A DNA stretch of 64,000 nt from Eledone cirrhosa (taxonomy: Eukaryota), in NCBI GenBank assembly GCA_964016885.1, contig OZ024765.1:9796001-9860000 (forward strand), written 5' to 3'. The notes under the pieces were generated by a model. That model was not told where the DNA came from. It searched no databases and was given only the letters and a program-made list of their open reading frames with translations. Position 1 is the first letter of the stretch, and every line of letters starts with the position of its first letter. The position numbers and the translations under genes are program-made. Shown here in pieces: positions 9,116 to 40,159 of the stretch.

Positions 9116-9165
9116 TCGTTATTATGATGGTATGTGGTATGTGTGAAATCCTTGGTACAGTTAGG

Positions 9166-11613: not shown

Positions 11614-11646
11614 TATATAAAAGGCAGTAAGAGGTGACCATCACTA
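11614..11646 (+). promoter_or_regulatory. TATA box + initiator-like core promoter (8 copies: 11614, 16531, 21029, 25531, 30019, 34513, 39001, 42172)
   Basis: GGTATATAAAAGGCAG with TCACT ~29 nt downstream in this A-type copy. Activity not shown. Confidence 0.45.
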
Positions 11647-12097: not shown

Positions 12098-12171
<74 letters not shown>

Positions 12172-13369
12172 ACATGGCTTGTATATATACTTTAATTATT
12201 ATATTCGTACAACGAAGTTATGAACTGGAAGCATTAGAGCAAAATCTAGCATTAACAATATTTTGTGAGACTAAACATGGAATGGACAAAGAGATTATTA
12301 GAAGAAGGGCAATTGTCTCTATCTTAAACGTCAATACATTCTACAGAAAATCGAAATGAGAATAATTACAGAGATACTTTACAAAATGTTTCGCGATATG
12401 GTTCAAGTTATTTTGTAGTAATATGCAGCTATATTTATACATGTCTCTTATACCCCTCCACGAGGAATTGTGAATATGTATGAATATGATTTTAAAGATG
12501 GCTAAACATGTTGAAGAAAAAAAAAGGAATTCAGATGATAGGAATAATAAAACATTCCTTTGCCGAGAGGTCTAAAATACTAGTTCAATGATATGTGTGA
12601 TACGACCTAGAATATTGTTTTGGGGCCTGGTCAGAGGACTTCAGAAAATACGGAGAAGCTATTGAAGGAATCCAGAAAAGAACAAAACAGAAAACACCAG
12701 AATTATTAAGAAATCTGTCTTCTGAAGAAAGATGTTAAACTTTAGGGATTGCAAATTTAGAGGAGATAAATCTAAGAGGGTGGGGGGACATGATAGAAAT
12801 ATATATTTAAAGGACTAATATTTAAATAGTAGTACACTATTCCAATGTAAAGCCCTGAATAACTACAGCTTTCGGGGAGATATATCAAACGAGTGACATG
12901 ATAGAAATATTTAAAATAATGAAAAGAATACAATATACAGTATTGCAGAAGTAAATGTAAATATAAGAAGACATCACCATTGTACTGCAGATGAAAGTCA
13001 GTACTCTTTACATTTATCCCAGGTATATAGAAAGCTATCCTGATGTCCACTGATTGAAATATAAAACAATAAAGAAACGCCACAATCCACTAAACGTTAG
13101 TAATAATCCAATTTCCTCTCAGCCGCCATTTACAGTAGAAAATAGTAAGAAAAACAGTCACACTCAGAAGTTAATGCAGTGAAAACAATAAAAATATTAT
13201 TAATAAATAATAATAATTTCATTTCATATTATCATTAAATTGTTTGTCTATTTTTATTGTAAACATAAAATATATACATAAATATATATACGTGATATAT
13301 TTATTATTATTATTATTATTATATATATAGATTCATACATATACATCGATACATTCTGTGAGTATGTCT

Positions 13370-13510
13370 TACTTAGGCAAAAGTCAAGTAATTTGCGGGG
13401 AGGAACCAATCCGTTAAATTGATCCCAGTACATGACTGGTACTATAAGTTATCTGCTCCCAAATCATAAAATTATGGATTGATCTAAACACTGAGAACAC
13501 AAAGGTGGGG
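13370..13510 (-). mobile_element. Highly decayed SINE copy inside each array unit
   Basis: ttaggcaaaagtcaagtaatttgcggggagg...gatcccagtacatgactggtactataagttatc aligns to the reverse complement of the SINE at 829-1020. Confidence 0.65.
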
Positions 13511-15290
13511 TAAAATTATTTAAAAATTGAGGTTTTAATATTTTATCTTTTATTTACAAATTATATATCTTGGTGTCATATTTAAGGATATAATGTAGTT
13601 ATTGGTGGAAATAATATAATATGTGATGAAGAGGTGTATATAACTGTGGATATAGAATTGTTTTAATCATTATTTTTAACGGACGAAAAAACTACGTAAT
13701 GACTTCTAGTCGGGGTTACGGGAAATTACGGCAAAGACCCTCATATATAGGAATCGGGCTAAACAATTTACGGGCACGCCGCTCTAAGTTGGAATATTTT
13801 TCACACACATAGACACGGGAGTTAGGTATGACATACTTCAAATAAGAGAACATTATTACAGACGGAGTCATTGTAGGTTGAAATCATTGTTAGACAGATC
13901 AGAAAGAAAATGGATATTTAATTCATGAAAAAACCTGAAGTGTGAAAGACAGAGTCGATCCTTTCTAGTAACAACACTAAGAAACCCATGAACGCCACCA
14001 CGTCCTAAATCTAACTCTGCGATCTTCATATCAAATCGAAATACTTCACCAACTGTGGAAGATGAAGGATTGAAGAACTATGATATATAGCTAAGAGGCT
14101 TGTCTCCAGAACATTTAGTAGGGTGTAAGCCAAGTGTTGCCAAATATTTTGTCGTCATTACCCACATTCACATGAAAAAATGTTCCACCAGCCACCTGTA
14201 TAGTAAATATTCCAAAGTATACCAAATATGTTTCGTAAATGTTTGTTCCTGGTTTAATTTTCCCAATTAGCTTCCTGATTTTTATTCAGGTTCTTTGCAT
14301 ATATTCCTTGAATAGGTTTTCGGCTAGCATACCTTCTTAAATCTCAAAATTCTATATCGGCCACCAAAGTTTCCAATGGCCCTCAATTTTCTGTTCAGCT
14401 GCTCATCGTCCACCCAACAGTTGAAATCGCCCAGTTGAGGAACCCCTGTGGGTAAGCTACCTCGAATGATGCTATATATTAATCGAGAGAAGGAGGTGAC
14501 TATTATAATTTTTATAAGTAATAATCTTTTAAAGACAAGAGGAAATTTCATCATTAAAATCATAAATATATGTCTACAGAATACAGATTATCAAAATGAA
14601 ATTAAAAGCAAGTAAATCAGGGGCCACTAAACTTTACATATTTAGTTTTATTTCTATCGTGAAAAATGTTGATCTTCAGATATTAGATTATGGCTGTAAT
14701 TGTCTTTGTGTTTACGTGTTTGTTTGAAATCCTTTTTTAATGTTTGTCTCTCTTTAAACATCGTTTATAGTTTGTTAAAATTAATTTTAGATTATTCGTA
14801 CCTCGTCTGTGTGGTTTATTTTGATGTAGCCTCCCTGTCTTGTTTATTGGTTACATTTTAAATGTGATATACAGGAACATCAGACATTAAAATGAAATGT
14901 TACGTAAAACACACACCTTGTGTTTATTCCAGGTATTTAGATAGATGTCCAGATGTCCACTGACAACAAAATAATACAATCATCCAGTGAAACTTGGTAA
15001 TAATCCAGGTTCGTTGCAGCCACCATTTACAGTAAACAATGGTTAGAAAGAATCAAAAACAAAAACAAAAGACATATTCAGCAGTTAATGAAGTGAAAAC
15101 AAAATCAAAACAACTTTACTAAATAAAATTCATTTCTTAATTTCAATAAGGTTTTTTGTTCTTTCTTTTATAAAAAAAAACAAATTTTAATTAAAATATG
15201 TTGAATATAATATGGGACATTACTACAAAGTACAGCATTATTAGTTCAAATCTTACTTAATAAAAGCAATAAATACGAAGTTATTAGTAT

Positions 15291-15403
15291 AGAACCTAAC
15301 GGAAATCGAACCCAAAATGAGGATCTCCACCGTCTCTAGTACTTACCATTAGGCCACAGGGACGGTTACAAAAATTTTTTGAAAATTAATATTTACTTAC
15401 CTA
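15291..15403 (-). ncRNA. tRNA-like Pol III-type module 1 of unit 1
   Basis: Minus strand: taaatattaattttca...GTCCCTG TGGCCTAATGG taagtactagagacggtggagatcctcatttt GGGTTCGATT. Confidence 0.55.
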
Positions 15404-15578
15404 TACTAGAAAAAACCGGAAGTGGAGAAAATTGAAAAACTTTTTCTTTTTCTTCCTCTGATTTTTGCCACGAACGATAACTCGTCTCTGACTTAAATCC
15501 AAATTTTGGATAAAAAAAAATCAGAGGAAGAAAAAGAAGATGTTTTTCAATTTTCTCCACTTCCGGTTTTTTCTAGTA
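15404..15578. repeat. Inverted repeat (~63-bp arms, ~50-bp spacer) with CCGGAAGT motifs, in every unit
   Basis: tactagaaaaaaccggaagtggagaaaattgaaaaa...cttcctctgattttt / aaaaatcagaggaag...tttttcaattttctccacttccggttttttctagta. The spacer contains atccaaattttggat. Confidence 0.92.
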
Positions 15579-15582
15579 ATGA

Positions 15583-15716
15583 AAAAGTAGGTTTATAAAT
15601 ATCAATTTTCAGTAAGTTTCCGTAACCGTCCCTTTAGCCTAGTGGTAAGTATAAGAGCCGGTGGAGGTCCAAGTCCGGGGTTCAATCACTGGCAGTGTGT
15701 CGTATTATATTTTTTA
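15583..15716 (+). ncRNA. tRNA-like Pol III-type module 2 of unit 1
   Basis: aaaagtaggtttataaatatcaattttca...GTCCCTT TAGCCTAGTGG...GGTTCAATC...TTTTTTT. Confidence 0.55.
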
Positions 15717-15735
15717 TAGTATAAAACAAAAATAA

Positions 15736-15874
15736 AAAAGTAACTTTATAAATATTAATTTTCACACTGTTTTTATATCTGTCTCCGTGGCCTAATGGTA
15801 GGTATTAGAGACGGTGGAGAACCTGCACTGGGTTTCGATCTCAGTCAAAGTCTATAGGTAATAATTTCATTTTT
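15736..15874 (+). ncRNA. tRNA-like Pol III-type module 3 of unit 1
   Basis: aaaagtaactttataaatattaattttca...GTCTCCG TGGCCTAATGG taggt...actggg TTTCGAT ctcagt...TTTTTT. Confidence 0.55.
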
Positions 15875-15888
15875 TACTTTGCTAGAGA

Positions 15889-16021
15889 AAAATATATAGT
15901 ACAGATTCGGACTGAGATTGAACACCACATCAGTGTCTACATAGTCTCTAACACCTACCATTAGGCCAACGAAACATATACAAGAACATAAGAAAAAATT
16001 TATATTTATAAACCTACTTTC
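15889..16021 (-). ncRNA. tRNA-like Pol III-type module 4 of unit 1
   Basis: Minus strand: aaagtaggtttataaatataaatttt...GTTTCGT TGGCCTAATGG taggt...GTGTTCAATCTCAGTC...TTTTT. Confidence 0.5.
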
Positions 16022-16949
16022 AATTTCCAAGCAAAATAGATGTGCTGGCGTTCATGGCTTTCTCATTGTTATTTCTACTATAATCGGGTCAATGTTTACA
16101 TTTATTCTTCTGGGGCTTTCATAAAATATATTTTCACTTTTTTTCGGGTTCATTAGATCCTACAACCAGATGATCTACAGGGACCTTCTTCATGGTCATA
16201 GCTGATTATTAAATATATACGGGAGAGTGTGTGTGTGTGTGTGTATTAGATTAGATCTTGCCGTGATGTACTCAGCAATAATAGTTTTCAATTCCGTCGT
16301 TCCTCCATCCTTGGTGTGTATATAAATATATATGTGATTTTAACGTACAACGGCGACAATATATAAATCTGTTTTGTTTGATAATAATTAGATAAAAATT
16401 ATTGCTAGAGATTGATCCCTAATATTTTATCTCACTCCTTAACCAGGGAGGAAAGGTCCTCAGACTCGGACAATGTTGATAAGGAGAGCAGAGTGTATCC
16501 TTATTTGTCACGTCTTTCCAGTTGTCACGGTATATAAAAGGCAGTAGTACTAGTCACTCCTGCGAAAGACGTTGTCAGTTAGCCTTCTGTAACGAGAGAA
16601 GAATGTCGTGACTTTTTCCTTCCTATCACATAATTCATACATTTGTCATCCTTTAGATATCAATATACAAGAGAAAGAAGAAAATTGAGGACTTCGGTCT
16701 TTTAAAAGTAACATTTATTACATTAGAGCAAAATCTTGCATTAACAATATTTTGTGAGACTAAACATGGAATGGACAAAGAGATTATTAGAAGAAGGGCA
16801 ATTGTCTCTATCTTAAACGTCAATACATTCTACAGAAAATCGAAATGAGAATAATTACAGAGATACTTTACAAAATGTTTCGCGATATGGTTCAAGTTAT
16901 TTTGTAGTAATATGCAGCTATATTTATACATGTCTCTTATACCCCTCCA

Positions 16950-17690
16950 CGAGGAATTGTGAATATGTATGAATATGATTTTAAAGATGGCTAAACATGT
17001 TGAAGAAAAAAAAAGGAATTCAGATGATAGGAATAATAAAACATTCCTTTGCCAAGCTAAATGTCGAGAAGTCTAAAACACTAGTTGAATGATATGTGTG
17101 ATAGGACCTAGAATATTGTTTTGGGGCCTGGTCAGAGGACTTCAGAAAATACGGAGAAGCTATTGAAGGAATCCAGAAAAGAACAAAACAGAAAACACCA
17201 GAATTATTAAGAAATCTGTCTTCTGAAGAAAGATGTTAAACTTTAGGGATTGCAAATTTAGAGGAGATAAATCTAAGAGGGTGGGGGGACATGATAGAAA
17301 TATATATTTAAAGGACTAATATTTAAATAGTAGTACACTATTCCAATGTAAAGCCCTGAATAACTACAGCTTTCGGGGAGATATATCAAACGAGTGACAT
17401 GATAGAAATATTTAAAATAATGAAAAGAATACAATATACAGTATTGCAGAAGTAAATGTAAATATAAGAAGACATCACCATTGTACTGCAGATGAAAGTC
17501 AGTACTCTTTACATCTATCCCAGGTATATAGAAAGCTATCCTGATGTCCACTGATCGAAATATAAAACAATAAAGAAACGCCACGATCCACTAAACGTTA
17601 GTAATAATCCAATTTCCTCTCAGCCGCCATTTACAGTAGAAAATAGTAAGAAAAACAGTCACACTCAGAAGTTAATGCAGTGAAAACAAT
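16950..17690 (+). pseudogene. Decayed CR1-type LINE ORF2 C-terminal region (present in all 7 unit copies; best preserved in units 2-3)
   Basis: LKMAKHVEEK / IQMIGIIKHSFAKLNVEKSKTLVE*YV**DLEYCFGAWSEDFRKYGEAIEGIQKR...PELLRNLSSEERC*TLGIANLEEINLRG..DMIEIY, plus a second DMIEIFKIMK. This matches the CR1 pattern MLGxIKRSF...HLEY...WSP...LExIQxR...YEERL...LRGDMIE. Confidence 0.8.
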
Positions 17691-19788
17691 AAAAATATTA
17701 TTAATAAATAATAATAATTTCATTTCATATTATCATTAAATTGTTTGTCTATTTTTATTGTAAACATAAAATATATACATAAATATATATACGTGATATA
17801 TATATTATTATTATTATTATATATATAGATTCATACATATACATCGATACATTCTGTGAGTATGTCTTACTTAGGCAAAAGTCAAGTAATTTGCGGGGAG
17901 GAACCAATCCGTTAAATTGATCCCAGTACATGACTGGTACTATAAGTTATCTGCTCCAAAATCATAAAATTATGGATTGATCTAAACACTGAGAACACAA
18001 AGGTGGGGTAAAATTATTTAAAAATTGAGGTTTTAATATTTTATCTTTTATTTACAAATTATATATTTTGGTGTCATATTTAAGGATATAATGTAGTTAT
18101 TGGTGGAAATAATATAATATGTGATGAAGAGGTGTATATAACTGTGGATATAGAATTGTTTTAATCATTATTTTTAACGGACGAAAAAACTACATAATGA
18201 CTTCTAGTCGGGGTTACGTGAAATTACGGCAAAGACCCTCAAATATAGGAATCGGGCTAAACAATTTACGGGCACGTCGCTCTAAGTTGGAATATTTTTC
18301 ACACACATAGACACGGGAGTTAGGTATGACATACTTCAAATAAGAGAACATTATTACAGACGGAGTCATTGTAGGTTGAAATCATTGTTAGACAGATCAG
18401 AAAGAAAATGGATATTTAATTCATGAAAAAACCTGAAGTGTGAAAGACAGAGTCGATCCTTTCTAGTAACAACACTAAGAAACCCATGAACGCCACCACG
18501 TCCTAAATCTAACTCTGCGATCGTCAAATCAAATCGAAATACTTCACCAACTGTGGAAGATGAAGGATTGAAGAACTATGATATATAGCTAAGAGGCTTG
18601 TCTCCAGAACATTTAGTAGGGTGTAAGCCAAGTGTTGCCAAATATTTTGTCGTCATTACCCACATTCACATGAAAAAATGTTCCACCAGCCACCTGTATA
18701 GTAAATATTCCAAAGTATACCAAATATGTTTCGTAAATGTTTGTTCCTGGTTTAATTTTCCCAATTAGCTTCCTGATTTTTATTCAGGTTCTTTGCATAT
18801 ATTCCTTGAATAGGTTTTCGGCTAGCATACCTTCTTAAATCTCAAAATTCTATATCGGCCACCAAAGTTTCCAATGGCCCTCAATTTTCTGTTCAGCTGC
18901 TCATCGTCCACCTAACAGTTGAAATCGCCCAGTTGAGGAACCCCTGTGGGTAAGCTACCTCGAATGATGCTATATATTAATCGAGAGAAGGAGGTGACTA
19001 TTATAATTTTTATAAGTAATAATCTTTTAAAGACAAGAGGAAATTTCATCATTAAAATCATAAATATATGTCTACAGAATACAGATTATCAAAATGAAAT
19101 TAAAAGCAAGTAAATCAGGGGCCACTAAACTTTACATATTTAGTTTTATTTCTATCGTGAAAAATGTTGATCTTCAGATATTAGATTATGGCTGTAATTG
19201 TCTTTGTGTTTACGTGTTTGTTTGAAATCCTTTTTTAATGTTTGTCTCTCTTTAAACATCGTTTATAGTTTGTTAAAATTAATTTTAGATTATTCGTACC
19301 TCGTCTGTGTGGTTTATTTTGATGTAGCCTCCCTGTCTTGTTTATTGGTTACATTTTAAATGTGATATACAGGAACATCAGACATTAAAATGAAATGTTA
19401 CGTAAAACACACACCTTGTGTTTATTCCAGGTATTTAGATAGATGTCCAGATGTCCACTGACAACAAAATAATACAATCATCCAGTGAAACTTGGTAATA
19501 ATCCAGGTTCGTTGCAGCCACCATTTACAGTAAACAATGGTTAGAAAGAATCAAAAACAAAAACAAAAGACATATTCAGCAGTTAATGAAGTGAAAACAA
19601 AATCAAAACAACTTTACTAAATAAAATTCATTTCTTAATTTCAATAAGGTTTTTTGTTCTTTCTTTTATAAAAAAAAACAAATTTTAATTAAAATATGTT
19701 GAATATAATATGGGACATTACTACAAAGTACAGCATTATTAGTTCAAATCTTACTTAATAAAAGCAATAAATACGAAGTTATTAGTAT

Positions 19789-20519
19789 AGAACCTAACGG
19801 AAATCGAACCCAAAATGAGGATCTCCACCGTCTCTAGTACTTACCATTAGGCCACAGGGACGGTTACAAAAATTTTTTGAAAATTAATATTTACTTACCT
19901 ATACTAGAAAAAACCGGAAGTGGAGAAAATTGAAAAACTTTTTCTTTTTCTTCCTCTGATTTTTGCCACGAACGATAACTCGTCTCTGACTTAAATCCAA
20001 ATTTTGGATAAAAAAAAATCAGAGGAAGAAAAAGAAGATGTTTTTCAATTTTCTCCACTTCCGGTTTTTTCTAGTAATGAAAAAGTAGGTTTATAAATAT
20101 CAATTTTCAGTAAGTTTCCGTAACCGTCCCTTTAGCCTAGTGGTAAGTATAAGAGCCGGTGGAGGTCCAAGTCCGGGGTTCAATCACTGGCAGTGTGTCG
20201 TATTATATTTTTTATAGTATAAAACAAAAATAAAAAAGTAACTTTATAAATATTAATTTTCACACTGTTTTTATATCTGTCTCCGTGGCCTAATGGTAGG
20301 TATTAGAGACGGTGGAGAACCTGCACTGGGTTTCGATCTCAGTCAAAGTCTATAGGTAATAATTTCATTTTTTACTTTGCTAGAGAAAAATATATAGTAC
20401 AGATTCGGACTGAGATTGAACACCACATCAGTGTCTACATAGTCTCTAACACCTACCATTAGGCCAACGAAACATATACAAGAACATAAGAAAAAATTTA
20501 TATTTATAAACCTACTTTC
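19789..20519. ncRNA. Four tRNA-like modules + palindrome, unit 2
   Basis: Copy of 15291-16021. Confidence 0.55.
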
Positions 20520-23500
20520 AATTTCCAAGCAAAATAGATGTGCTGGCGTTCATGGCTTTCTCATTGTTATTTCTACTATAATCGGGTCAATGTTTACATT
20601 TATTCTTCTGGGGCTTTCATAAAATATATTTTCACTTTTTTTCGGGTTCATTAGATCCTACAACCAGATGATCTACAGGGACCTTCTTCATGGTCATAGC
20701 TGATTATTAAATATATACGGGAGAGTGTGTGTGTGTGTGTGTATTAGATTAGATCTTGCCGTGATGTACTCAGCAATAATAGTTTTCAATTCCGTCGTTC
20801 CTCCATCCTTGGTGTGTATATAAATATATATGTGATTTTAACGTACAACGGCGACAATATATAAATCTGTTTTGTTTGATAATAATTAGATAAAAATTAT
20901 TGCTAGAGATTGATCCCTAATATTTTATCTCACTCCTTAACCAGGGAGGAAAGGTCCTCAGACTCGGACAATGTTGATAAGGAGAGCAGAGTGTATCCTT
21001 ATTTGTCACGTCTTTCCAGTTGTCACGGTATATAAAAGGCAGTAGTACTAGTCACTCCTGCGAAAGACGTTGTCAGTTAGCCTTCTGTAACGAGAGAAGA
21101 ATGTCGTGACTTTTTCCTTCCTATCACATAATTCATACATTTGTCATCCTTTAGATATCAATATACAAGAGAAAGAAGAAAATTGAGGACTTCGGTCTTT
21201 TAAAAGTAACATTTATTACATTAGAGCAAAATCTTGCATTAACAATATTTTGTGAGACTAAACATGGAATGGACAAAGAGATTATTAGAAGAAGGGCAAT
21301 TGTCTCTATCTTAAACGTCAATACATTCTACAGAAAATCGAAATGAGAATAATTACAGAGATACTTTACAAAATGTTTCGCGATATGGTTCAAGTTATTT
21401 TGTAGTAATATGCAGCTATATTTATACATGTCTCTTATACCCCTCCACGAGGAATTGTGAATATGTATGAATATGATTTTAAAGATGGCTAAACATGTTG
21501 AAGAAAAAAAAAGGAATTCAGATGATAGGAATAATAAAACATTCCTTTGCCAAGCTAAATGTCGAGAAGTCTAAAACACTAGTTGAATGATATGTGTGAT
21601 AGGACCTAGAATATTGTTTTGGGGCCTGGTCAGAGGACTTCAGAAAATACGGAGAAGCTATTGAAGGAATCCAGAAAAGAACAAAACAGAAAACACCAGA
21701 ATTATTAAGAAATCTGTCTTCTGAAGAAAGATGTTAAACTTTAGGGATTGCAAATTTAGAGGAGATAAATCTAAGAGGGTGGGGGGACATGATAGAAATA
21801 TATATTTAAAGGACTAATATTTAAATAGTAGTACACTATTCCAATGTAAAGCCCTGAATAACTACAGCTTTCGGGGAGATATATCAAACGAGTGACATGA
21901 TAGAAATATTTAAAATAATGAAAAGAATACAATATACAGTATTGCAGAAGTAAATGTAAATATAAGAAGACATCACCATTGTACTGCAGATGAAAGTCAG
22001 TACTCTTTACATCTATCCCAGGTATATAGAAAGCTATCCTGATGTCCACTGATCGAAATATAAAACAATAAAGAAACGCCACGATCCACTAAACGTTAGT
22101 AATAATCCAATTTCCTCTCAGCCGCCATTTACAGTAGAAAATAGTAAGAAAAACAGTCACACTCAGAAGTTAATGCAGTGAAAACAATAAAAATATTATT
22201 AATAAATAATAATAATTTCATTTCATATTATCATTAAATTGTTTGTCTATTTTTATTGTAAACATAAAATATATACATAAATATATATACGTGATATATA
22301 TATTATTATTATTATTATATATATAGATTCATACATATACATCGATACATTCTGTGAGTATGTCTTACTTAGGCAAAAGTCAAGTAATTTGCGGGGAGGA
22401 ACCAATCCGTTAAATTGATCCCAGTACATGACTGGTACTATAAGTTATCTGCTCCAAAATCATAAAATTATGGATTGATCTAAACACTGAGAACACAAAG
22501 GTGGGGTAAAATTATTTAAAAATTGAGGTTTTAATATTTTATCTTTTATTTACAAATTATATATTTTGGTGTCATATTTAAGGATATAATGTAGTTATTG
22601 GTGGAAATAATATAATATGTGATGAAGAGGTGTATATAACTGTGGATATAGAATTGTTTTAATCATTATTTTTAACGGACGAAAAAACTACATAATGACT
22701 TCTAGTCGGGGTTACGTGAAATTACGGCAAAGACCCTCAAATATAGGAATCGGGCTAAACAATTTACGGGCACGTCGCTCTAAGTTGGAATATTTTTCAC
22801 ACACATAGACACGGGAGTTAGGTATGACATACTTCAAATAAGAGAACATTATTACAGACGGAGTCATTGTAGGTTGAAATCATTGTTAGACAGATCAGAA
22901 AGAAAATGGATATTTAATTCATGAAAAAACCTGAAGTGTGAAAGACAGAGTCGATCCTTTCTAGTAACAACACTAAGAAACCCATGAACGCCACCACGTC
23001 CTAAATCTAACTCTGCGATCGTCAAATCAAATCGAAATACTTCACCAACTGTGGAAGATGAAGGATTGAAGAACTATGATATATAGCTAAGAGGCTTGTC
23101 TCCAGAACATTTAGTAGGGTGTAAGCCAAGTGTTGCCAAATATTTTGTCGTCATTACCCACATTCACATGAAAAAATGTTCCACCAGCCACCTGTATAGT
23201 AAATATTCCAAAGTATACCAAATATGTTTCGTAAATGTTTGTTCCTGGTTTAATTTTCCCAATTAGCTTCCTGATTTTTATTCAGGTTCTTTGCATATAT
23301 TCCTTGAATAGGTTTTCGGCTAGCATACCTTCTTAAATCTCAAAATTCTATATCGGCCACCAAAGTTTCCAATGGCCCTCAATTTTCTGTTCAGCTGCTC
23401 ATCGTCCACCTAACAGTTGAAATCGCCCAGTTGAGGAACCCCTGTGGGTAAGCTACCTCGAATGATGCTATATATTAATCGAGAGAAGGAGGTGACTATT

Positions 23501-28765: not shown

Positions 28766-29509
28766 AGAACCTAACGGAAATCGAACCCAAAATGAGGATC
28801 TCCACCGTCTCTAGTACTTACCATTAGGCCACAGGGACGGTTACAAAAATTTTTTGAAAATTAATATTTACTTACCTATACTAGAAAAAACCGGAAGTGG
28901 AGAAAATTGAAAAACTTTTTCTTTTTCTTCCTCTGATTTTTGCCACGAACGATAACTCGTCTCTGACTTAAATCCAAATTTTGGATTAAAAAAAATCAGA
29001 GGAAGAAAAAGAAGATGTTTTTCAATTTTCTCCACTTCCGGTTTTTTCTAGTAATGAAAAAGTAGGTTTATAAATATCAATTTTCAGTAAGTTTCCGTAA
29101 CCGTCCCTTTAGCCTAGTGGTAAGTATAAGAGCCGGTGAGGTCCAGGTCCGGGGTTCAATCACTGGCAGTGTGTCGTATTATATTTTTTATAGTATAAAA
29201 CAAAAATAAAAAAGTAACTTTATAAATATTAATTTTCACACTGTTTTTATATCTGTCTCCGTGGCCTAATGGTAGGTATTAGAGACGGTGGAGAACCTGC
29301 TCTGGGTTTTGATCTCAGTCAAAGTCTATAGGTAATAATTTCATTTTTTACTTTGCTAGAGAAAAATTTAAATTTAAAAATATATAGTACAGATTCGGAC
29401 TGAGATTGAACACCACATCAGTGTCTATATAGTCTCTAACACCTACCATTAGGCCAACGAAACAGAAACAAGAACATAAGAAAAAATTAATATTTATAAA
29501 CCTACTTTC
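28766..29509. ncRNA. Four tRNA-like modules + palindrome, unit 4
   Basis: Copy of 15291-16021 with minor variants. Confidence 0.55.
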
Positions 29510-32500
29510 AATTTCCAAGCAAAATAGATGTGCTGGCGTTCATGGCTTTCTCATTGTTATTTCTACTATAATCGGGTCAATGTTTACATTTATTCTTCTG
29601 GGGCTTTCATAAAATATATTTTCACTTTTTTTCGGGTTCATTAGATCCTACAACCAGATGATCTACAGGGACCTTCTTCATGGTCATAGCTGATTATTAA
29701 ATATATACGGGAGAGTGTGTGTGTGTGTGTGTATTAGATTAGATCTTGCCGTGATGTACTCAGCAATAATAGTTTTCAATTCCGTCGTTCCTCCATCCTT
29801 GGTGTGTATATAAATATATATGTGATTTTAACGTACAACGGCGACAATATATAAATCTGTTTTGTTTGATAATAATTAGATAAAAATTATTGCTAGAGAT
29901 TGATCCCTAATATTTTATCTCACTCCTTAACCAGGGAGGAAAGGTCCTCAGACTCGGACAATGTTGATAAGGAGAGCAGAGTGTATCCTTATTTGTCACG
30001 TCTTTCCAGTTGTCACGGTATATAAAAGGCAGTAGTACTAGTCACTCCTGCGAAAGACGTTGTCAGTTAGCCTTCTGTAACGAGAGAAGAATGTCGTGAC
30101 TTTTTCCTCCCTATCACATAATTCATACATTTGTCATCCTTTAGATATCAATATACAAGAGAAAGAAGAAAATTGAGGACTTCGGTCTTTTAAAAGTAAC
30201 ATTTATTACATTAGAGCAAAATCTTGCATTAACAATATTTTGTGAGACTAAACATGGAATGGACAAAGAGATTATTAGAAGAAGGGCAATTGTCTCTATC
30301 TTAAACGTCAATACATTCTACAGAAAATCGAAATGAGAATAATTACAGAGATACTTTACAAAATGTTTCGCGATATGGTTCAAGTTATTTTGTAGTAATA
30401 TGCAGCTATATTTATACATGTCTCTTATACCCCTCCACGAGGAATTGTGAATATGTATGAATATGATTTTAAAGATGGCTAAACATGTTGAAGAAAAAAA
30501 AAGGAATTCAGATGATAGGAATAATAAAACATTCCTTTGCCGAGAGGTCTAAAATACTAGTTCAATGATATGTGTGATACAACCTAGAATATTGTTTTGG
30601 GGCCTGGTCAGAGGACTTCAGAAAATACGGAGAAGCTATTGAAGGAATCCAGAAAAGAACAAAACAGAAAACACCAGAATTATTAAGAAATCTGTCTTCT
30701 GAAGAAAGATGTTAAACTTTAGGGATTGCAAATTTAGAGGAGATAAATCTAAGAGGGTGGGGGGACATGATAGAAATATATATTTAAAGGACTAATATTT
30801 AAATAGTAGTACACTATTCCAATGTAAAGCCCTGAATAACTACAGCTTTCGGGGAGATATATCAAACGAGTGACATGATAGAAATATTTAAAATAATGAA
30901 AAGAATACAATATACAGTATTGCAGAAGTAAATGTAAATATAAGAAGACATCACCATTGTACTGCAGATGAAAGTCAGTACTCTTTACATTTATCCCAGG
31001 TATATAGAAAGCTATCCTGATGTCCACTGATTGAAATATAAAACAATAAAGAAACGCCACAATCCACTAAACGTTAGTAATAATCCAATTTCCTCTCAGC
31101 CGCCATTTACAGTAGAAAATAGTAAGAAAAACAGTCACACTCAGAAGTTAATGCAGTGAAAACAATAAAAATATTATTAATAAATAATAATAATTTCATT
31201 TCATATTATCATTAAATTGTTTGTCTATTTTTATTGTAAACATAAAATATATACATAAATATATATACGTGATATATATATTATTATTATTATTATTATC
31301 TATATAGATTCATACATATACATCGATACATTCTGTGAGTATGTCTTACTTAGGCAAAAGTCAAGTAATTTGCGGGGAGGAACCAATCCGTTAAATTGAT
31401 CCCAGTACATGACTGGTACTATAAGTTATCTGCTCCAAAATCATAAAATTATGGATTGATCTAAACACTGAGAACACAAAGGTGGGGTAAAATTATTTAA
31501 AAATTGAGGTTTTAATATTTTATCTTTTATTTACAAATTATATATCTTGGTGTAATATTTAAGGATATAATGTAGTTATTGGTGGAAATAATATAATATG
31601 TGATGAAGAGGTGTATATAACTGTGGATATAGAATTGTTTTAATCATTATTTTTAACGGACGAAAAAACTACATAATGACTTCTAGTCGGGGTTACGGGA
31701 AATTACGGCAAAGACCCTCATATATAGGAATCGGGCTAAACAATTTACGGGCACGTCGCTCTAAGTTGGAATATTTTTCACACACATAGACACGGGAGTT
31801 AGGTATGACATACTTCAAATAAGAGAACATTATTACAGACGGAGTCATTGTAGGTTGAAATCATTGTTAGACAGATCAGAAAGAAAATGGATATTTAATT
31901 CATGAAAAAACCTGAAGTGTGAAAGACAGAGTCGATCCTTTCTAGTAACAACACTAAGAAACCCATGAACGCCACCACGTCCTAAATCTAACTCTGCGAT
32001 CGTCATATCAAATCGAAATACTTCACCAACTGTGGAAGATGAAGGATTGAAGAACTATGATATATAGCTAAGAGGCTTGTCTCCAGAACATTTAGTAGGG
32101 TGTAAGCCAAGTGTTGCCAAATATTTTGTCGTCATTACCCACATTCACATGAAAAAATGTTCCACCAGCCACCTGTATAGTAAATATTCCAAAGTATACC
32201 AAATATGTTTCGTAAATGTTTGTTCCTGGTTTAATTTTCCCAATTAGCTTCCTGATTTTTATTCAGGTTCTTTGCATATATTCCTTGAATAGGTTTTCGG
32301 CTAGCATACCTTCTTAAATCTCAAAATTCTATATCGGCCACCAAAGTTTCCAATGGCCCTCAATTTTCTGTTCAGCTGCTCATCGTCCACCCAACAGTTG
32401 AAATCGCCCAGTTGAGGAACCCCTGTGGGTAAGCTACCTCGAATGATGCTATATATTAATCGAGAGAAGGAGGTGACTATTATAATTTTTATAAGTAATA

Positions 32501-33268
32501 ATCTTTTAAAGACAAGAGGAAATTTCATCATTAAAATCATAAATATATGTCTACAGAATACAGATTATCAAAATGAAATTAAAAGCAAGTAAATCAGGGG
32601 CCACTAAACTTTACATATTTAGTTTTATTTCTATCGTGAAAAATGTTGATCTTCAGATATTAGATTATGGCTGTAATTGTCTTTGTGTTTACGTGTTTGT
32701 TTGAAATCCTTTTTTAATGTTTGTCTCTCTTTAAACATCGTTTATAGTTTGTTAAAATTAATTTTAGATTATTCGTACCTCGTCTGTGTGGTTTATTTTG
32801 ATGTAGCCTCCCTGTCTTGTTTATTGGTTACATTTTAAATGTGATATACAGGAACATCAGACATTAAAATGAAATGTTACGTAAAACACACACCTTGTGT
32901 TTATTCCAGGTATTTAGATAGATGTCCAGATGTCCACTGACAACAAAATAATACAATCATCCAGTGAAACTTGGTAATAATCCAGGTTCGTTGCAGCCAC
33001 CATTTACAGTAAACAATGGTTAGAAAGAATCAAAAACAAAAACAAAAGACATATTCAGCAGTTAATGAAGTGAAAACAAAATCAAAACAACTTTACTAAA
33101 TAAAATTCATTTCTTAATTTCAATAAGGTTTTTTGTTCTTTCTTTTATAAAAAAAAAACAAATTTTAATTAAAATATGTTGAATATAATATGGGACATTA
33201 CTACAAAGTACAGCATTATTAGTTCAAATCTTACTTAATAAAAGCAATAAATACGAAGTTATTAGTAT

Positions 33269-34012
33269 AGAACCTAACGGAAATCGAACCCAAAATGAGG
33301 ATCTCCACCGTCTCTAGTGCTTACCATTAGGCCACAGAGACGGTTACAAAAATTTTTTGAAAATTAATATTTATTTACCTATACTAGAAAAAACCGGAAG
33401 TGGAGAAAATTGAAAAACTTTTTCTTTTTCTTCCTCTGATTTTTGCCACGAACGATAACTCGTCTCTGACTTAAATCCAAATTTTGGATAAAAAAAAATC
33501 AGAGGAAGAAAAAGAAGATGTTTTTCAATTTTCTCCACTTCCGGTTTTTTCTAGTAATGAAAAAGTAGGTTTATGAATATCAATTTTCAGTAAGTTTCCG
33601 TAACCGTCCCTTTAGCCTAGTGGTAAGTATAAGAGCCGGTGGAGGTCCAGGTCCGGGGTTCAATCACTGGCAGTGTGTCGTATTATATTTTTTATAGTAT
33701 GAAACAAAAATAAAAAAGTAACTTTATAAATATTAATTTTCACACTGTTTTTATATCTGTCTCCGTGGCCTAATGGTAGGTATTAGAGACGGTGGGGAAC
33801 CTGCTCTGGGTTTCGATCTCAGTCAAAATCTATAGGTAATAATTTCATTTTTTACTTTGCTAGAGAAAAATTTAAATTTAAAAATATATAGTACAGATTC
33901 GGACTGAGATTGAACACCACATCAGTGTCTACATAGTCTCTAACACCTACCATTAGGCCAACGAAACAGATACAAGAACATAAGAAAAAATTAATATTTA
34001 TAAACTTACTTT
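33269..34012. ncRNA. Four tRNA-like modules + palindrome, unit 5
   Basis: Copy of 15291-16021 with minor variants. Confidence 0.55.
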
Positions 34013-37000
34013 CAATTTCCAAGCAAAATAGATGTGCTGGCGTTCATGGCTTTCTCATTCTTATTTCTACTATAATCGGGTCAATGTTTACATTTATTCT
34101 TCTGGGGCTTTCATAAAATATATTTTCACTTTTTTTTGGGTTCATTAGATCCTACAACCAGATGATCTACAGGGACCTTCTTCATGGTCATAGCTGATTA
34201 TTAAATATATACGGGAGAGTGTGTGTATTAGATTAGATCTTGCCGTGATGTTCTCAGCAATAATAGTTTTCAATTCCGTCGTCCCTCCATCCTTGGTGTG
34301 TATATAAATATATATGTGAATTTAACGTACAACGGCGACAATATATAAATCTGTTTTGTTTGATAATAATTAGATAAAAATTATTGCTAGAGATTGATCC
34401 CTAATATTTTATCTCACTCCTTAACCAGGGAGGAAAGGTCCTCAGACTCGGACAATGTTGATAAGGAGAGCAGAGTGTATCCTTATTTGTCACGTCTTTC
34501 CAGTTGTCACGGTATATAAAAGGCAGTAGTACTAGTCAATCCTGCGAAAGACGTTGTCAGTTAGCCTTCTGTAACGAGAGAAGAATGTCGTGACTTTTTC
34601 CTCCCTATCACATAATTCATACATTTGTCATCCTTTAGATATCAATATACAAGAGAAAGAAGAAAATTGAGGACTTCGGTCTTTTAAAAGTAACATTTAT
34701 TACATTAGAGCAAAATCTTGCATTAACAATATTTTGTGAGACTAAACATGGAATGGACAAAGAGATTATTAGAAGAAGGGCAATTGTCTCTATCTTAAAC
34801 GTCAATACATTCTACAGAAAATCGAAATGAGAATAATTACAGAGATACTTTACAAAATGTTTCGCGATATGGTTCAAGTTATTTTGTAGTAATATGCAGC
34901 TATATTTATACATGTCTCTTATACCCCTCCACGAGGAATTGTGAATATGTATGAATATGATTTTAAAGATGGCTAAACATGTTGAAGAAAAAAAAAGGAA
35001 TTCAGATGATAGGAATAATAAAACATTCCTTTGCCGAGAGGTCTAAAATACTAGTTCAATGATATGTGTGATACGACCTAGAATATTGTTTTGGGGCCTG
35101 GTCAGAGGACTTCAGAAAATACGGAGAAGCTATTGAAGGAATCCAGAAAAGAACAAAACAGAAAACACCAGAATTATTAAGAAATCTGTCTTCTGAAGAA
35201 AGATGTTAAACTTTAGGGATTGCAAATTTAGAGGAGATAAATCTAAGAGGGTGGGGGGGACATGATAGAAATATATATTTAAAGGACTAATATTTAAATA
35301 GTAGTACACTATTCCAATGTAAAGCCCTGAATAACTACAGCTTTCGGGGAGATATATCAAACGAGTGACATGATAGAAATATTTAAAATAATGAAAAGAA
35401 TACAATATACAGTATTGCAGAAGTAAATGTAAATATAAGAAGACATCACCATTGTACTGCAGATGAAAGTCAGTACTCTTTACATCTATCCCAGGTATAT
35501 AGAAAGCTATCCTGATGTCCACTGATCGAAATATAAAACAATAAAGAAACGCCACGATCCACTAAACGTTAGTAATAATCCAATTTCCTCTCAGCCGCCA
35601 TTTACAGTAGAAAATAGTAAGAAAAACAGTCACACTCAGAAGTTAATGCAGTGAAAACAATAAAAATATTATTAATAAATAATAATAATTTCATTTCATA
35701 TTATCATTAAATTGTTTGTCTATTTTTATTGTAAACATAAAATATATACATAAATATATATACGTGATATATATATTATTATTATTATTATATATATAGA
35801 TTCATACATATACATCGATACATTCTGTGAGTATGTCTTACTTAGGCAAAAGTCAAGTAATTTGCGGGGAGGAACCAATCCGTTAAATTGATCCCAGTAC
35901 ATGACTGGTACTATAAGTTATCTGCTCCAAAATCATAAAATTATGGATTGATCTAAACACTGAGAACACAAAGGTGGGGTAAAATTATTTAAAAATTGAG
36001 GTTTTAATATTTTATCTTTTATTTACAAATTATATATCTTGGTGTAATATTTAAGGATATAATGTAGTTATTGGTGGAAATAATATAATATGTGATGAAG
36101 AGGTGTATATAACTGTGGATATAGAATTGTTTTAATCATTATTTTTAACGGACGAAAAAACTACATAATGACTTCTAGTCGGGGTTACGTGAAATTACGG
36201 CAAAGACCCTCAAATATAGGAATCGGGCTAAACAATTTACGGGCACGTCGCTCTAAGTTGGAATATTTTTCACACACATAGACACGGGAGTTAGGTATGA
36301 CATACTTCAAATAAGAGAACATTATTACAGACGGAGTCATTGTAGGTTGAAATCATTGTTAGACAGATCAGAAAGAAAATGGATATTTAATTCATGAAAA
36401 AACCTGAAGTGTGAAAGACAGAGTCGATCCTTTCTAGTAACAACACTAAGAAACCCATGAACGCCACCACGTCCTAAATCTAACTCTGCGATCGTCATAT
36501 CAAATCGAAATACTTCACCAACTGTGGAAGATGAAGGATTGAAGAACTATGATATATAGCTAAGAGGCTTGTCTCCAGAACATTTAGTAGGGTGTAAGCC
36601 AAGTGTTGCCAAATATTTTGTCGTCATTACCCACATTCACATGAAAAAATGTTCCACCAGCCACCTGTATAGTAAATATTCCAAAGTATACCAAATATGT
36701 TTCGTAAATGTTTGTTCCTGGTTTAATTTTCCCAATTAGCTTCCTGATTTTTATTCAGGTTCTTTGCATATATTCCTTGAATAGGTTTTCGGCTAGCATA
36801 CCTTCTTAAATCTCAAAATTCTATATCGGCCACCAAAGTTTCCAATGGCCCTCAATTTTCTGTTCAGCTGCTCATCGCCCACCCAACAACAGTTGAAACC
36901 GCCCAGTTGAGGAACCCCTGTGGGTAAGCTACATATTAATCGAGAGGAGGAGGTGACTATTATAATTTTTATAAGTAATAATCTTTTAAAGACAAGAGGA

Positions 37001-37746
37001 AATTTCATCATTAAAATCATAAATATATGTCTACAGAATACAGATTATCAAAATGAAATTAAAAGCAAGTAAATCAGGGGCCACTAAACTTTACATATTT
37101 AGTTTTATTTCTATCGTGAAAAATGTTGATCTTCAGATATTAGATTATGGCTGTAATTGTCTTTGTGTTTACGTGTTTGTTTGAAATCCTTTTTTAATGT
37201 TTGTCTCTCTTTAAACATCGTTTATAGTTTGTTAAAATTAATTTTAGATTATTCGTACCTCGTCTGTGTGGTTTATTTTGATGTAGCCTCCCTGTCTTGT
37301 TTATTGGTTACATTTTAAATGTGATATACAGGAACATCAGACATTAAAATGAACTGTTACGTAAAACACACACCTTGTGTTTATTCCAGGTATTTAGATA
37401 GATGTCCAGATGTCCACTGACAACAAAATAATACAATCATCCAGTGAAACTTGGTAATAATCCAGGTTCGTTGCAGCCACCATTTACAGTAAACGATGGT
37501 TAGAAAGAATCAAAAACAAAAACAAAAGACATATTCAGCAGTTAATGAAGTGAAAACAAAATCAAAACAACTTTACTAAATAAAATTCATTTCTTAATTT
37601 CAATAAGGTTTTTTCTTCTTTCTTTTATAAAAAAAACAAATTTTAATTAAAATATGTTGAATATAATATGGGACATTACTACAAAGTACAGCATTATTAG
37701 TTCAAATCTTACTTAATAAAAGCAATAAATACGCAGTTATTAGTAT

Positions 37747-38491
37747 AGAACCTAACGGAAATCGAACCCAAAATGAGGATCTCCACCGTCTCTAGTACTT
37801 ACCATTAGGCCACAGGGACGGTTACAAAAATTTTTTGAAAATTAATATTTACTTACCTATACTAGAAAAAACCGGAAGTGGAGAAAATTGAAAAACTTTT
37901 TCTTTTTCTTCTTCTGATTTTTGCCACGAACGATAACTCGTCTCTGACTTAAATCCAAATTTTGGATAAAAAAAAATCAGAGGAAGAAAAAGAAGATGTT
38001 TTTCAATTTTCTCCACTTCCGGTTTTTTCTAGTAATGAAAAAGTAGGTTTATAAATATCAATTTTCAGTAAGTTTCCGTAACCGTCCCTTTAGCCTAGTG
38101 GTAAGTATAAGAGCCGGTGGAGGTCCAGGTCCGGGGTTCAATCACTGGCAGTGTGTCGTATTATATTTTTTATAGTATAAAACAAAAATAAAAAAGTAAC
38201 TTTATAAATATTAATTTTCACACTGTTTTTATATCTGTCTCCGTGGCCTAATGGTAGGTATTAGAGACGGTGGAGAACCTGCTCTGGGTTTCGATCTCAG
38301 TCAAAGTCTATAGGTAATAATTTCATTTTTTACTTTGCTAGAGAAAAATTTAAATTTAAAAATATATAGTACAGATTCGGACTGAGATTGAACACCACAT
38401 CAGTGTCTACATAGTCTCTAACACCTACCATTAGGCCAACGAAACAGATACAAGAACATAAGAAAAAATTTATATTTATAAACCTACTTTC
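37747..38491. ncRNA. Four tRNA-like modules + palindrome, unit 6
   Basis: Copy of 15291-16021 with minor variants. Confidence 0.55.
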
Positions 38492-40159
38492 AATTTCCAA
38501 GCAAAATAGATGTGCTGGCGTTCATGGCTTTCTCATTCTTATTTCTACTATAATCGGGTCAATGTTTACATTTATTCTTCTGGGGCTTTCATAAAATATA
38601 TTTTCACTTTTTTTCGGGTTCATTAGATCCTACAACCAGATGATCTACAGGGACCTTCTTCATGGTCATAGCTGATTATTAAATATATACGGGAGAGTGT
38701 GTGTGTGTGTGTGTATTAGATTAGATCTTGCCGTGATGTACTCAGCAATAATAGTTTTCAATTCCGTCGTCCCTCCATCCTTGGTGTGTATATAAATATA
38801 TATGTGATTTTAACGTACAACGGCGACAACATATAAATCTGTTTTGTTTGATAATAATTAGATAAAAATTATTGCTAGAGATTGATCCCTAATATTTTAT
38901 CTCACTCCTTAACTAGGGAGGAAAGGTCCTCAGACTCGGACAATCTTGATAAGGAGAGCAGAGTGTATCCTTATTTGTCACGTCTTTCCAGTTGTCACGG
39001 TATATAAAAGGCAGTAGTACTAGTCACTCCTGCGAAAGACGTTGTCAGTTAGCCTTTTGTAACGAGAGAAGAATGTCGTGACTTTTTCCTCCCTATCACA
39101 TAATTCATACATTTGTCATCCTTTAGATATCAATATACAAGAGAAAGAAGAAAATTGAGGACTTCGGTCTTTTAAAAGTAACATTTATTACATTAGAGCA
39201 AAATCTTGCATTAACAATATTTTGTGAGACTAAACATGGAATGGACAAAGAGATTATTAGAAGAAGGGCAATTGTCTCTATCTTAAACGTCAATACATTC
39301 TACAGAAAATCGAAATGAGAATAATTACAGAGATACTTTACAAAATGTTTCGCGATATGGTTCAAGTTATTTTGTAGTAATATGCAGCTATATTTATACA
39401 TGTCTCTTATACCCCTCCACGAGGAATTGTGAATATGTATGAATATGATTTTAAAGATGGCTAAACATGTTGAAGAAAAAAAAAGGAATTCAGATGATAG
39501 GAATAATAAAACATTCCTTTGCCGAGAGGTCTAAAATACTAGTTCAATGATATGTGTGATACGACCTAGAATATTGTTTTGGGGCCTGGTCAGAGGACTT
39601 CAGAAAATACGGAGAAGCTATTGAAGGAATCCAGAAAAGAACAAAACAGAAAACACCAGAATTATTAAGAAATCTGTCTTCTGAAGAAAGATGTTAAACT
39701 TTAGGGATTGCAAATTTAGAGGAGATAAATCTAAGAGGGTGGGGGGACATGATAGAAATATATATTTAAAGGACTAATATTTAAATAGTAGTACACTATT
39801 CCAATGTAAAGCCCTGAATAACTACAGCTTTCGGGGAGATATATCAAACGAGTGACATGATAGAAATATTTAAAATAATGAAAAGAATACAATATACAGT
39901 ATTGCAGAAGTAAATGTAAATATAAGAAGACATCACCATTGTACTGCAAATGAAAGTCAGTACTCTTTACATTTATCCCAGGTATATAGAAAGCTATCCT
40001 GATGTCCACTGATTGAAATATAAAACAATAAAGAAACACCACAATCCAGTAAACGTTAGTAATAATCCAATTTCCTCTCAGCCGCCATTTACAGTAGAAA
40101 ATAGTAAGAAAAACAAACTCACACTCAGAAGTTAATGCAGTGAAAACAATAAAAATATT

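What the first reader, a model, noticed from the sequence alone, without database searches (positions are those of the whole stretch)
12232..40158. Young 28-kb macrosatellite whose 4.5-kb unit is a compact multi-promoter cassette
Seen: six-plus near-identical 4478-4503 bp units. Each combines four Pol III-type tRNA-like modules, a CCGGAAGT palindrome, a TATA-to-AATAAA cassette over a decayed CR1 RT tail, a second CR1-tail paralog, a long-range inverted repeat and a decayed SINE. No intact protein ORF, rRNA, histone or snRNA gene is recognisable, so it is not one of the usual tandem gene arrays. The contents are old (stops and the SINE decay are shared by all copies) while the amplification is recent. 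Inference: candidate non-coding RNA or small-RNA (piRNA/endo-siRNA)-producing locus, or a chromatin-organising array. Neutral amplification of junk DNA remains possible.
Basis: partly seen in the sequence, partly recalled or inferred. Interest (0 to 1): 0.8.

Follow-up and report, generated by a model that had tools for sequence, protein, structure and literature searches.

The report
Octopod tandem Pol III gene array
A 28-kb tandem repeat in a likely octopod genome carries four diverged tRNA-derived modules per 4.5-kb unit whose RNA polymerase III promoter signals stayed conserved while the rest changed fast, so it is likely an undescribed family of genes for RNAs of about 90 bases, although no such RNA has been seen yet.

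Summary
The array is real: six units of 4488-4502 bp plus 969 bp, 0.4-0.8% apart, set between two older relatives. Independent sequencing runs hold the same family. The neighbouring gene points to an octopod.

The informative part is an 800-bp block with four tRNA-derived modules per unit (24 in the array, 6 in the flanks). Each type has a TATA element, an A box, a B box 33 nt further on and usually a T-run, spaced as in type-2 Pol III RNA genes. Across nine lineages the TATA element changes 0.45 times per site, the boxes about 1.0, and the 7-nt spacer beside them 3.1. The block also mutates 2.2-2.4 times faster than the rest of the unit, a pattern reported for transcribed tRNA loci. Fifteen of 24 array copies look intact; module A is decayed in all six units.

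Against: there is no RNA covariation, no expression data, and new variants hit conserved sites. The Pol II cassette, CR1 and piRNA readings are not supported beyond resemblance.

Verdict: likely a 4.5SH/snaR-like tandem Pol III small-RNA gene family carried in junk DNA; function unproven.

The parts
12232..40159 (.). Young tandem array, 6 units plus 969 bp, with 24 tRNA-derived modules
12232..16720 (.). Unit 1 (4489 bp); the other units start at 16721, 21219, 25721, 30209, 34703, 39191
15262..15399 (-). Module A, decayed: TATA core lost, internal T4, no T5; A box intact
15404..15578 (.). Palindrome, 63-nt arms 97% complementary, CCGGAAGT (ETS-type motif, recalled) in each arm, upstream of the divergent modules A and B
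15592..15715 (+). Module B: TATA element 15592-15611, predicted start 15624, A box 15635, B box 15679, T-run; intact in 4 of 6 units
15745..15875 (+). Module C: TATA element 15745-15764, predicted start 15777, A box 15788, B box 15832, T-run; intact in 5 of 6 units
15888..16012 (-). Module D: TATA element 16012-15993, predicted start about 15979, A and B boxes, T-run; intact in 6 of 6 units
16039..16077 (-). Upstream motif of module D, also found before other first-in-cluster modules
13966..14004 (+).
   Evidence: an X1 contig joins the equivalent place to a TATA module (table 5)
16371..16740 (+). Block with a Pol II-like TATA at 16531; no conservation above background, no conserved ORF seen
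12601..12807 (+). Broken frame resembling a LINE (CR1-type) RT tail; resemblance recalled, not confirmed by search
13373..13471 (-). Decayed fragment of a SINE-like repeat dispersed in the window
9272..12231 (.). Older paralogous unit, left: modules at 10531, 10703, 10850 and promoter-only relics at 10262-10302 and 11056-11096
40160..42900 (.). Older paralogous unit, right: modules at 41238, 41408, 41608(-) and a promoter-only relic at 40770-40810

Best explanation
The array is a recently homogenised tandem repeat whose units each carry four diverged tRNA-derived modules, which are likely type-2 RNA polymerase III genes (three types likely active, one decayed) predicted to make RNAs of about 85-97 bases. 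SHOWN: the anatomy and spacing of TATA element, A box, B box and T-run; their conservation against fast-changing neighbours; no cloverleaf and no SINE body or tail. INFERRED from known type-2 promoters: TFIIIC would bind the A and B boxes and place TFIIIB on the TATA at -30 to -24; Pol III would start at the conserved T/A step 11 nt before the A box and stop at the T-run. INFERRED: selection has kept the genes transcribable rather than kept a precise fold, and heavy transcription would explain why the block mutates about twice as fast as the rest. The most likely role is an abundant, loosely constrained small RNA acting by dose through a bound protein, as with rodent 4.5SH/4.5SI or ape snaR; this last step is a guess (about 30%). 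Unequal crossover and gene conversion would amplify the genes along with 3.7 kb of decayed repeats.
For: Promoter grammar matches the published type-2 consensus: A box 11 bp from the start, B box 30-40 nt on, TATA-like box at -31/-24 (PMC10137851 and PMC7279448, passages). Here the A box has 0-2 mismatches in 10 of 10 lineages scored (0 in 6); the A-to-B gap is 32-34 nt in 8 of the 9 aligned lineages and 23 in R2, which has a 10-nt deletion; TATAAAT lies at -30..-24 if A32 is +1. Parsimony changes per site over 9 lineages: TATA element 0.45 (9/20), adjacent spacer 3.14 (22/7), A box 1.08, B box 1.00, other body 1.72, trailer 2.42; scan-corrected p 0.0008 for the TATA element, p 0.015 for the boxes. 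TATA and boxes stay below spacer and trailer in unit-only, flank-only and A/T-site-only subsets. T>=5 follows at +79..+97 in 8 of 9 lineages, against 12% per 30 nt by chance. Faster change of the module block: 20/810 vs 38/3649 variable columns in the array (p 0.003) and 22/710 vs 24/1704 differences in X6+X7 contigs (p 0.008). The fastest sites lie 11-16 nt before the tRNA-equivalent position 1, where active tRNA loci peak at 12-15 nt (PMC6130373, passages). 15 of 24 array modules are intact. The family stands in other runs and species labels.
Against: No covariation: 198 of 500 shuffles reach the observed 75.8% pairing and 207 of 500 the covariation score; RNAalifold keeps only 8 pairs at -2.7 kcal/mol; folding z-scores run from -1.6 to +1.2. 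Module bodies are 71-79% identical to their closest flank module, at or below the 77-88% of ordinary blocks. New variants in the young array hit family-invariant sites (TATA in B of units 3 and 5, A box of B in unit 3, B box of C in unit 4), and the TATA elements are not depleted of variants (3/80 columns). Module A is decayed in 6 of 6 units; L0, L3, Lx and R2 in the flanks are damaged. The B box departs from consensus at 1-2 places. The rate excess counts shared haplotype blocks as separate columns, the transition excess is not significant (14/20 vs 19/38, p 0.17), and hairpin-driven mutagenesis at the palindrome could also raise the rate. The nine lineages are related, and L0, L3 and Lx were left out of the tree.
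Confidence: 0.6

Rival explanations
1. Fossil genes in neutral junk: the modules were once selected Pol III genes (or a refolded tRNA/SINE-head family), are now silent or irrelevant, and the array is amplifying neutrally.
For: No covariation; bodies diverge at least as fast as junk; young variants strike invariant sites; A decayed in 6 of 6 units; about 3.7 kb of each unit looks like decayed repeats.
Against: Modules B, C and D have each kept TATA, boxes, spacing and terminator through long separate histories, also in the unit-only subset; 15 of 24 are intact; the recent rate excess fits continuing transcription.
Confidence: 0.22
2. Chromatin-organising array: the selected thing is TFIIIC/TFIIIB binding (tDNA-type boundary or anchoring); any RNA is a by-product.
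For: Conservation is concentrated in DNA-binding elements, not in RNA structure; extra B boxes without an A box lie nearby (10024, 10133, 40532, 40641); tRNA genes and orphan Pol III elements can act as insulators (PMC4233971, passages).
Against: Terminator T-runs and the start-site T/A are kept, which binding alone would not need; the body is still more conserved than spacer and trailer.
Confidence: 0.09
3. Hairpin (endo-siRNA or piRNA) locus: a Pol II read-through transcript from the TATA at 16531 folds at the palindrome and the inverted modules and is diced.
For: 63-nt arms at 97%; helices of 36-37 uninterrupted pairs in the folded block; the TATA is kept in three lineages.
Against: The palindrome is absent in this form from both older paralogs; the TATA block is not conserved above background; it does not explain the Pol III grammar.
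Confidence: 0.04
4. Assembly artefact, or a tandem of non-autonomous LTR elements with Pol III promoters (Cassandra/Helenus/Ajax type).
For: The array begins and ends with the same 969-bp segment, as an LTR tandem would; such elements form tandem arrays (PMC10886601, passages).
Against: Units differ by shared, mosaic variants; 19 of 23 listed X1/X5 differences are fixed in all six units; X5 contigs bridge both unit joins (table 8). No TG..CA ends and no target-site duplication; the junctions are out-of-register joins to older paralogs; the modules lie outside the 969-bp segment.
Confidence: 0.03
5. Spliced-leader RNA genes: a 21-22-nt leader ends at a GGTA(A/G)GT donor-like motif and the T-run is an Sm site.
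For: GGTA.GT is kept in 7 of 9 aligned rows (GGTAAAT in L1, GGAATGT in L0); the size fits (recalled).
Against: The same letters are tRNA D-loop positions; A/B boxes, TATA and terminator point to Pol III; the would-be leader varies between paralogs; nothing conserved follows the T-run. The listing showed no title on mollusc trans-splicing.
Confidence: 0.02

Closest known systems
Rodent 4.5SH RNA genes
   Same: About 100-nt type-2 Pol III RNA; hundreds of gene copies, each part of a 4-5-kb tandem repeat; TATA-like box at -31/-24 (PMC10137851, PMC7279448, passages; PMC3440375, abstract start in listing).
   Different: 4.5SH derives from 7SL/B1 and has one gene per unit as described; here four diverged tRNA-derived paralogs per unit, head-to-head and tail-to-tail, in a mollusc; no homology; expression unshown.
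Rodent 4.5SI RNA and BC1 RNA
   Same: tRNA-derived Pol III RNAs with A/B boxes; BC1 is refolded from cloverleaf to hairpin (PMC4233971, passages).
   Different: Three genes (4.5SI) or a single locus (BC1), not a macrosatellite; both are proven RNAs.
Great-ape snaR family
   Same: Lineage-restricted Pol III RNAs spread by segmental duplication into tandem arrays together with unrelated flanking DNA, diverging into subfamilies (PMC3045588, passages).
   Different: Alu-derived, highly structured, NF90-bound; here tRNA-derived with no covariation signal.
Tandem tRNA gene clusters
   Same: A and B boxes, tRNA-universal positions kept, hypervariable stretch 12-15 nt upstream (PMC6130373, passages).
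   Different: No acceptor or anticodon stem; not called by ARAGORN or Rfam at normal thresholds; body not conserved like a tRNA.
Vault RNA genes
   Same: Type-2 promoter with TATA-like box at -30/-24 (PMC7279448, Table 1); clustered paralogs of similar size (recalled).
   Different: No 5'-3' terminal stem here and no Rfam match.

Membership tests
Type-2 Pol III small-RNA gene (kind of 4.5SH/4.5SI/snaR) | A box TRGYnnARBGG about 11 bp after the start | tested here: met
   0 mismatches in 4 of 4 unit modules, 0-2 in 10 of 10 lineages; the start site itself is inferred
Type-2 Pol III small-RNA gene (kind of 4.5SH/4.5SI/snaR) | B box GGTTCRAnYCY 30-40 nt after the A box | tested here: met
   1-2 mismatches, gap 32-34 in 8 of 9 aligned lineages
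Type-2 Pol III small-RNA gene (kind of 4.5SH/4.5SI/snaR) | TATA-like box at -31/-24 | tested here: met
   TATAAAT present in 16 of 24 array modules, absent in A x6 and B x2; most conserved part of the module
Type-2 Pol III small-RNA gene (kind of 4.5SH/4.5SI/snaR) | T-run terminator giving an RNA of about 100 nt | tested here: met
   T>=5 at +79..+97 in 8 of 9 lineages
Type-2 Pol III small-RNA gene (kind of 4.5SH/4.5SI/snaR) | Transcribed by Pol III into a discrete RNA | not testable with these tools
   No RNA run was on offer; only the indirect mutation-rate pattern
4.5SH, 4.5SI or snaR families themselves | Sequence homology, mammalian lineage | tested here: not met
   No Rfam hit; host likely an octopod
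tRNA gene | Cloverleaf with acceptor and anticodon stems | tested here: not met
   ARAGORN 0 genes; only 2 of the 4 unit modules called, at a lowered threshold that also calls unrelated DNA; folds pair the 5' end internally
tRNA-derived SINE | Head plus body and LINE-like tail, dispersed copies with unrelated flanks | tested here: not met
   T-run follows the T-arm directly; upstream flank is shared between copies; no copy outside the cluster in 64 kb. Genome-wide dispersal could not be tested
Vault RNA | 5' and 3' ends pair into a terminal stem | tested here: not met
   5'-3' duplex -1.6 to -5.0 kcal/mol, weaker than the internal pairing in 8 of 8 modules; no Rfam match
Spliced-leader RNA | Leader found on mRNA 5' ends; Sm site between hairpins | not testable with these tools
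   No transcriptome; sequence after the T-run is not conserved
Non-autonomous LTR element with Pol III promoter (Cassandra/Helenus/Ajax) | TG..CA LTRs holding the small-RNA-derived part; target-site duplication | tested here: not met
   Junction sequences; modules lie outside the terminal 969-bp segment
Macrosatellite under concerted evolution | Multi-kb head-to-tail units more alike within the array than to other individuals or species | tested here: met
   0.40-0.83% within; 20 differences over a 1296-nt X1 contig; 19 of 23 listed differences fixed in all six units
CR1/Jockey-clade LINE relic (12601-12807) | Homology to the RT C-terminal region | tested here: inconclusive
   Recalled motif resemblance; searches blank but insensitive

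The most novel reading that the evidence does not exclude
Octopods have their own, undescribed, high-copy family of tRNA-derived Pol III RNAs, encoded several paralogs per macrosatellite unit and diversified by their own transcription, that regulate RNA processing, for example as decoys for dsRNA-binding or editing proteins, or for U1 through the splice-donor-like motif displayed in the first hairpin loop: a cephalopod parallel to 4.5SH and snaR.
Probability: 0.12. Interest if true: 0.8.

Novelty: new variant of a known kind. Interest (0 to 1): 0.5.

Why it matters
Tandemly amplified, lineage-specific Pol III small-RNA genes are known mainly from rodents and apes. A mollusc case with several diverged paralogs per unit would show the same route from tRNA-derived DNA to a new RNA family in a lineage noted for RNA-level regulation. 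The predicted starts, ends and lengths make it directly testable with existing octopus RNA data or one Northern blot. It also offers a clean case of a promoter kept by selection inside DNA that mutates faster around it. If no RNA is found, it is an ordinary macrosatellite carrying fossil genes.

Tried and rejected
No whole genome is held, so dispersal and copy number are untested. No RNA holder listed among 11 runs; this is no evidence either way. X5 has no cover at 37875-38364; not used, since contigs drop variable and palindromic parts. Summed depths are no copy number; one X1 contig of the unit has depth 1052 while several flank-type contigs have 8-31, only a hint of high copy. Pattern scans: 0 hits in metagenome contigs and viral contigs; a TATA-element pattern gave 2 loci, L001 and L002, with no module body, judged chance. 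Rfam at E<=10 gave generic hairpin matches only, all below gathering score. Two-hairpin structure: fits the majority sequence (75.8% paired vs 34-46% when slid) but shows no covariation. Protein reading of the unit: no Pfam hit; frame 14473-13991(-) has 3 unnamed short homologs with no family, uninformative. The CR1 label stays unconfirmed. tRNA-Sec and vault readings rejected. Octopus microRNA check: six motifs absent from the searchable supplement text of PMC9699675, but its data archive is cut to 100 characters and the PDF was not searched, so this says nothing. CpG o/e is higher in the cluster (0.75-1.0) than outside (0.36-0.56), but the right side is a gene body, so not used. Literature searches listed no paper on such an array in octopods; the library lacks most subscription journals and Repbase/Dfam were not available. 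Earlier scan notes: nothing for this genome or sequence.


Full report
HOST AND SETTING. The window is 33% G+C and rich in micro- and minisatellites. An aldo-keto reductase gene lies on the minus strand at 60447-48013 in seven exon matches; one exon is 87% identical to Octopus sinensis and O. vulgaris proteins and 76% to a cuttlefish protein (6 hits of 11 candidates). The host is therefore likely another octopod. The array ends about 7.9 kb beyond that gene's last exon. No genome is held.

THE ARRAY IS REAL. It runs 12232-40159: six units of 4488-4502 bp and a 969-bp seventh. The 15 pairwise distances are 0.40-0.83%, and variants are shared between non-adjacent units in blocks, as unequal exchange would leave them. 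Seven of 11 listed runs, under four species labels, hold words of the unit (shares 0.50 to 0.12). Laying four of them on 35670-43000 gave a 1296-nt X1 contig with 20 differences, X5 contigs that bridge both 40159-to-35816 and 39190/39191 (the unit is circular in that sample's assembly), and X6 and X7 pieces about 96-100% alike in their best records. Of 23 listed X1/X5 differences inside unit 6, 19 are fixed in all six window units (the table shown was the best 40 of 346 rows). That is concerted evolution. Older paralogous units flank the array on both sides, 64-79% like the unit and 82-95% like each other; both junctions are out of register, the right one with 4 nt of microhomology.

WHAT THE UNIT HOLDS. 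There is no tRNA, no Rfam family and no Pfam domain. About 3.7 kb is decayed material: a broken frame that resembles a LINE RT tail from recall only, an internal 65% duplication, a SINE-like fragment and a Pol II-like TATA whose block is 87.8% identical to the left paralog against 86.4% for an ordinary block.

THE MODULES. A profile built from eight module bodies, without upstream sequence, finds 30 copies: 24 in the array, 6 in the flanks, none elsewhere. Their layout is a 20-nt TATA element, a 7-nt spacer, a short leader, an A box, a B box 32-34 nt later and a T-run. Published type-2 promoters have the A box 11 bp from the start, the B box 30-40 nt on and a TATA-like box at -31/-24 (PMC10137851 and PMC7279448; passages read). 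Taking the conserved T31/A32 step as -1/+1 puts the A box 11 nt in and TATAAAT at -30..-24. Unit 1 has 4 A+B pairs against 0.21 in 100 shuffles (maximum 3). T>=5 follows at +79..+97 in 8 of 9 lineages against 12% by chance. A and B point away from a 63-nt palindrome; C and D point at each other. By fixed criteria 15 of 24 array modules are intact; A fails in all six units, B in two, C in one.

SIGNS OF SELECTION. On a tree of nine lineages (A-D, L1, L2, R1, R2, R3; L0 with a deletion in its TATA element and the body-less L3 and Lx left out), changes per site are 0.45 for the TATA element, 3.14 for the spacer next to it, 1.08 and 1.00 for the boxes, 1.72 for the other body and 2.42 for the trailer (scan-corrected p 0.0008, boxes p 0.015). 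The contrast holds for unit modules alone, flank modules alone and A/T sites alone, so neither base composition nor one clade explains it. The unchanged body sites are the tRNA D-loop and T-loop positions (numbering recalled).

SIGNS OF TRANSCRIPTION, INDIRECT. The module block varies at 20 of 810 columns in the array against 38 of 3649 elsewhere, and at 22 of 710 against 24 of 1704 sites in the X6 and X7 records shown. The fastest sites lie 11-16 nt before the tRNA-equivalent position 1, right behind the quiet TATA element. Active tRNA loci show 7-10-fold higher mutation, a peak 12-15 nt upstream and a dip where TBP binds (PMC6130373; passages). The match is suggestive only: columns in shared blocks are not independent, the transition excess is not significant, only the longest contigs were shown, and a palindrome can itself be mutagenic.

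WHAT SPEAKS AGAINST. The majority sequence can fold into a D-arm hairpin and a T-arm hairpin, but copies break pairs without compensation (198 and 207 of 500 shuffles reach the observed values), RNAalifold finds almost nothing and z-scores are unremarkable. Bodies are 71-79% like their closest flank module, no better than junk. Young variants hit invariant sites. Nothing here shows an RNA.

MECHANISM AND ODDS. Shown: anatomy, conservation pattern, recent homogenisation. Inferred: TFIIIC and TFIIIB assembly and Pol III transcription of 85-97-nt RNAs from B, C and D, with weak selection per copy. My estimates: promoter function selected during the family's history about 80%; some array copies transcribed now about 60-65%; the RNA has a host function about 30%. 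Rivals are fossil genes in neutral junk (0.22), a TFIIIC chromatin array (0.09), a hairpin small-RNA locus (0.04), artefact or LTR tandem (0.03) and spliced-leader genes (0.02).

COMPARISON. It works most like 4.5SH genes (hundreds of copies, each in a 4-5-kb tandem unit; PMC10137851) and snaR (tandem arrays by segmental duplication; PMC3045588, passages), and its origin is like 4.5SI and BC1 (PMC4233971, passages). It is a member of none of them, nor a tRNA, SINE, vault RNA or Pol III-bearing LTR element (PMC10886601, passages) by the tests listed. Cephalopod genomes hold many tRNA-derived loci (about 17,000 in the giant squid; PMC6962438, passages), so raw material is common. Searches listed no description of this array; repeat libraries, subscription papers and the unread supplements of PMC9699675 (main-text passages and part of the supplements seen) may hold one.

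VERDICT. Observation largely right, interpretation narrowed. New variant of a known kind; interest 0.5, rising to about 0.8 if an abundant regulatory RNA is found.

Noticed in passing
window 10046-10143 and 40554-40651; broken copy 13743-13885: A second B-box element with its own TATA-like motif and no good A box; a lone perfect T-arm hairpin lies at 10021-10037 and 40529-40545. Possibly another tRNA-derived gene or orphan TFIIIC sites.
   Followed up: partly
window 15341-15860 and equivalents in units 3 and 5: Five of the variants carried by units 3 and/or 5 in the module block are A-to-G on the plus strand, four of them in or next to the plus-strand modules B and C. Post hoc; fits transcription-linked mutation or an editing-derived copy.
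   Followed up: partly
window 9166-9263: A 98-bp palindrome (90% arms) right at the left edge of the older paralog, partly repeated at 6122-6175.
   Followed up: no
window 60447-48013 (-): Aldo-keto reductase (YajO-like) gene in seven exon matches; minisatellites at 57618-58439 (57 bp) and 48782-49037 (83 bp) copy the ends of its exons.
   Followed up: partly
window 49529-50982, 52086-53701, 60513-61368: Young intronic minisatellites of 123, 59 and 85 bp; the 123-bp unit keeps a repeated open frame resembling a LINE tail (recalled).
   Followed up: no
window 14324-14473 (-): A short frame inside the unit has three unnamed homologs of 45-64% identity (P0007-P0009) with no Pfam family; X7 holds the neighbouring stretch with 0 differences in 192 nt and a 59-nt deletion.
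   Followed up: partly
X1 contigs laid on 35670-43000: Many joints link module regions in other orders and orientations (e.g. 36470 to 41366, 41433 to 41595), so further subfamilies with different module arrangements exist in that sample.
   Followed up: no
window 6599-7003 (+) and 8627-9118 (-): Open frames resembling a Tc1/mariner transposase and an RTE-type LINE fragment (both recalled, not searched).
   Followed up: no
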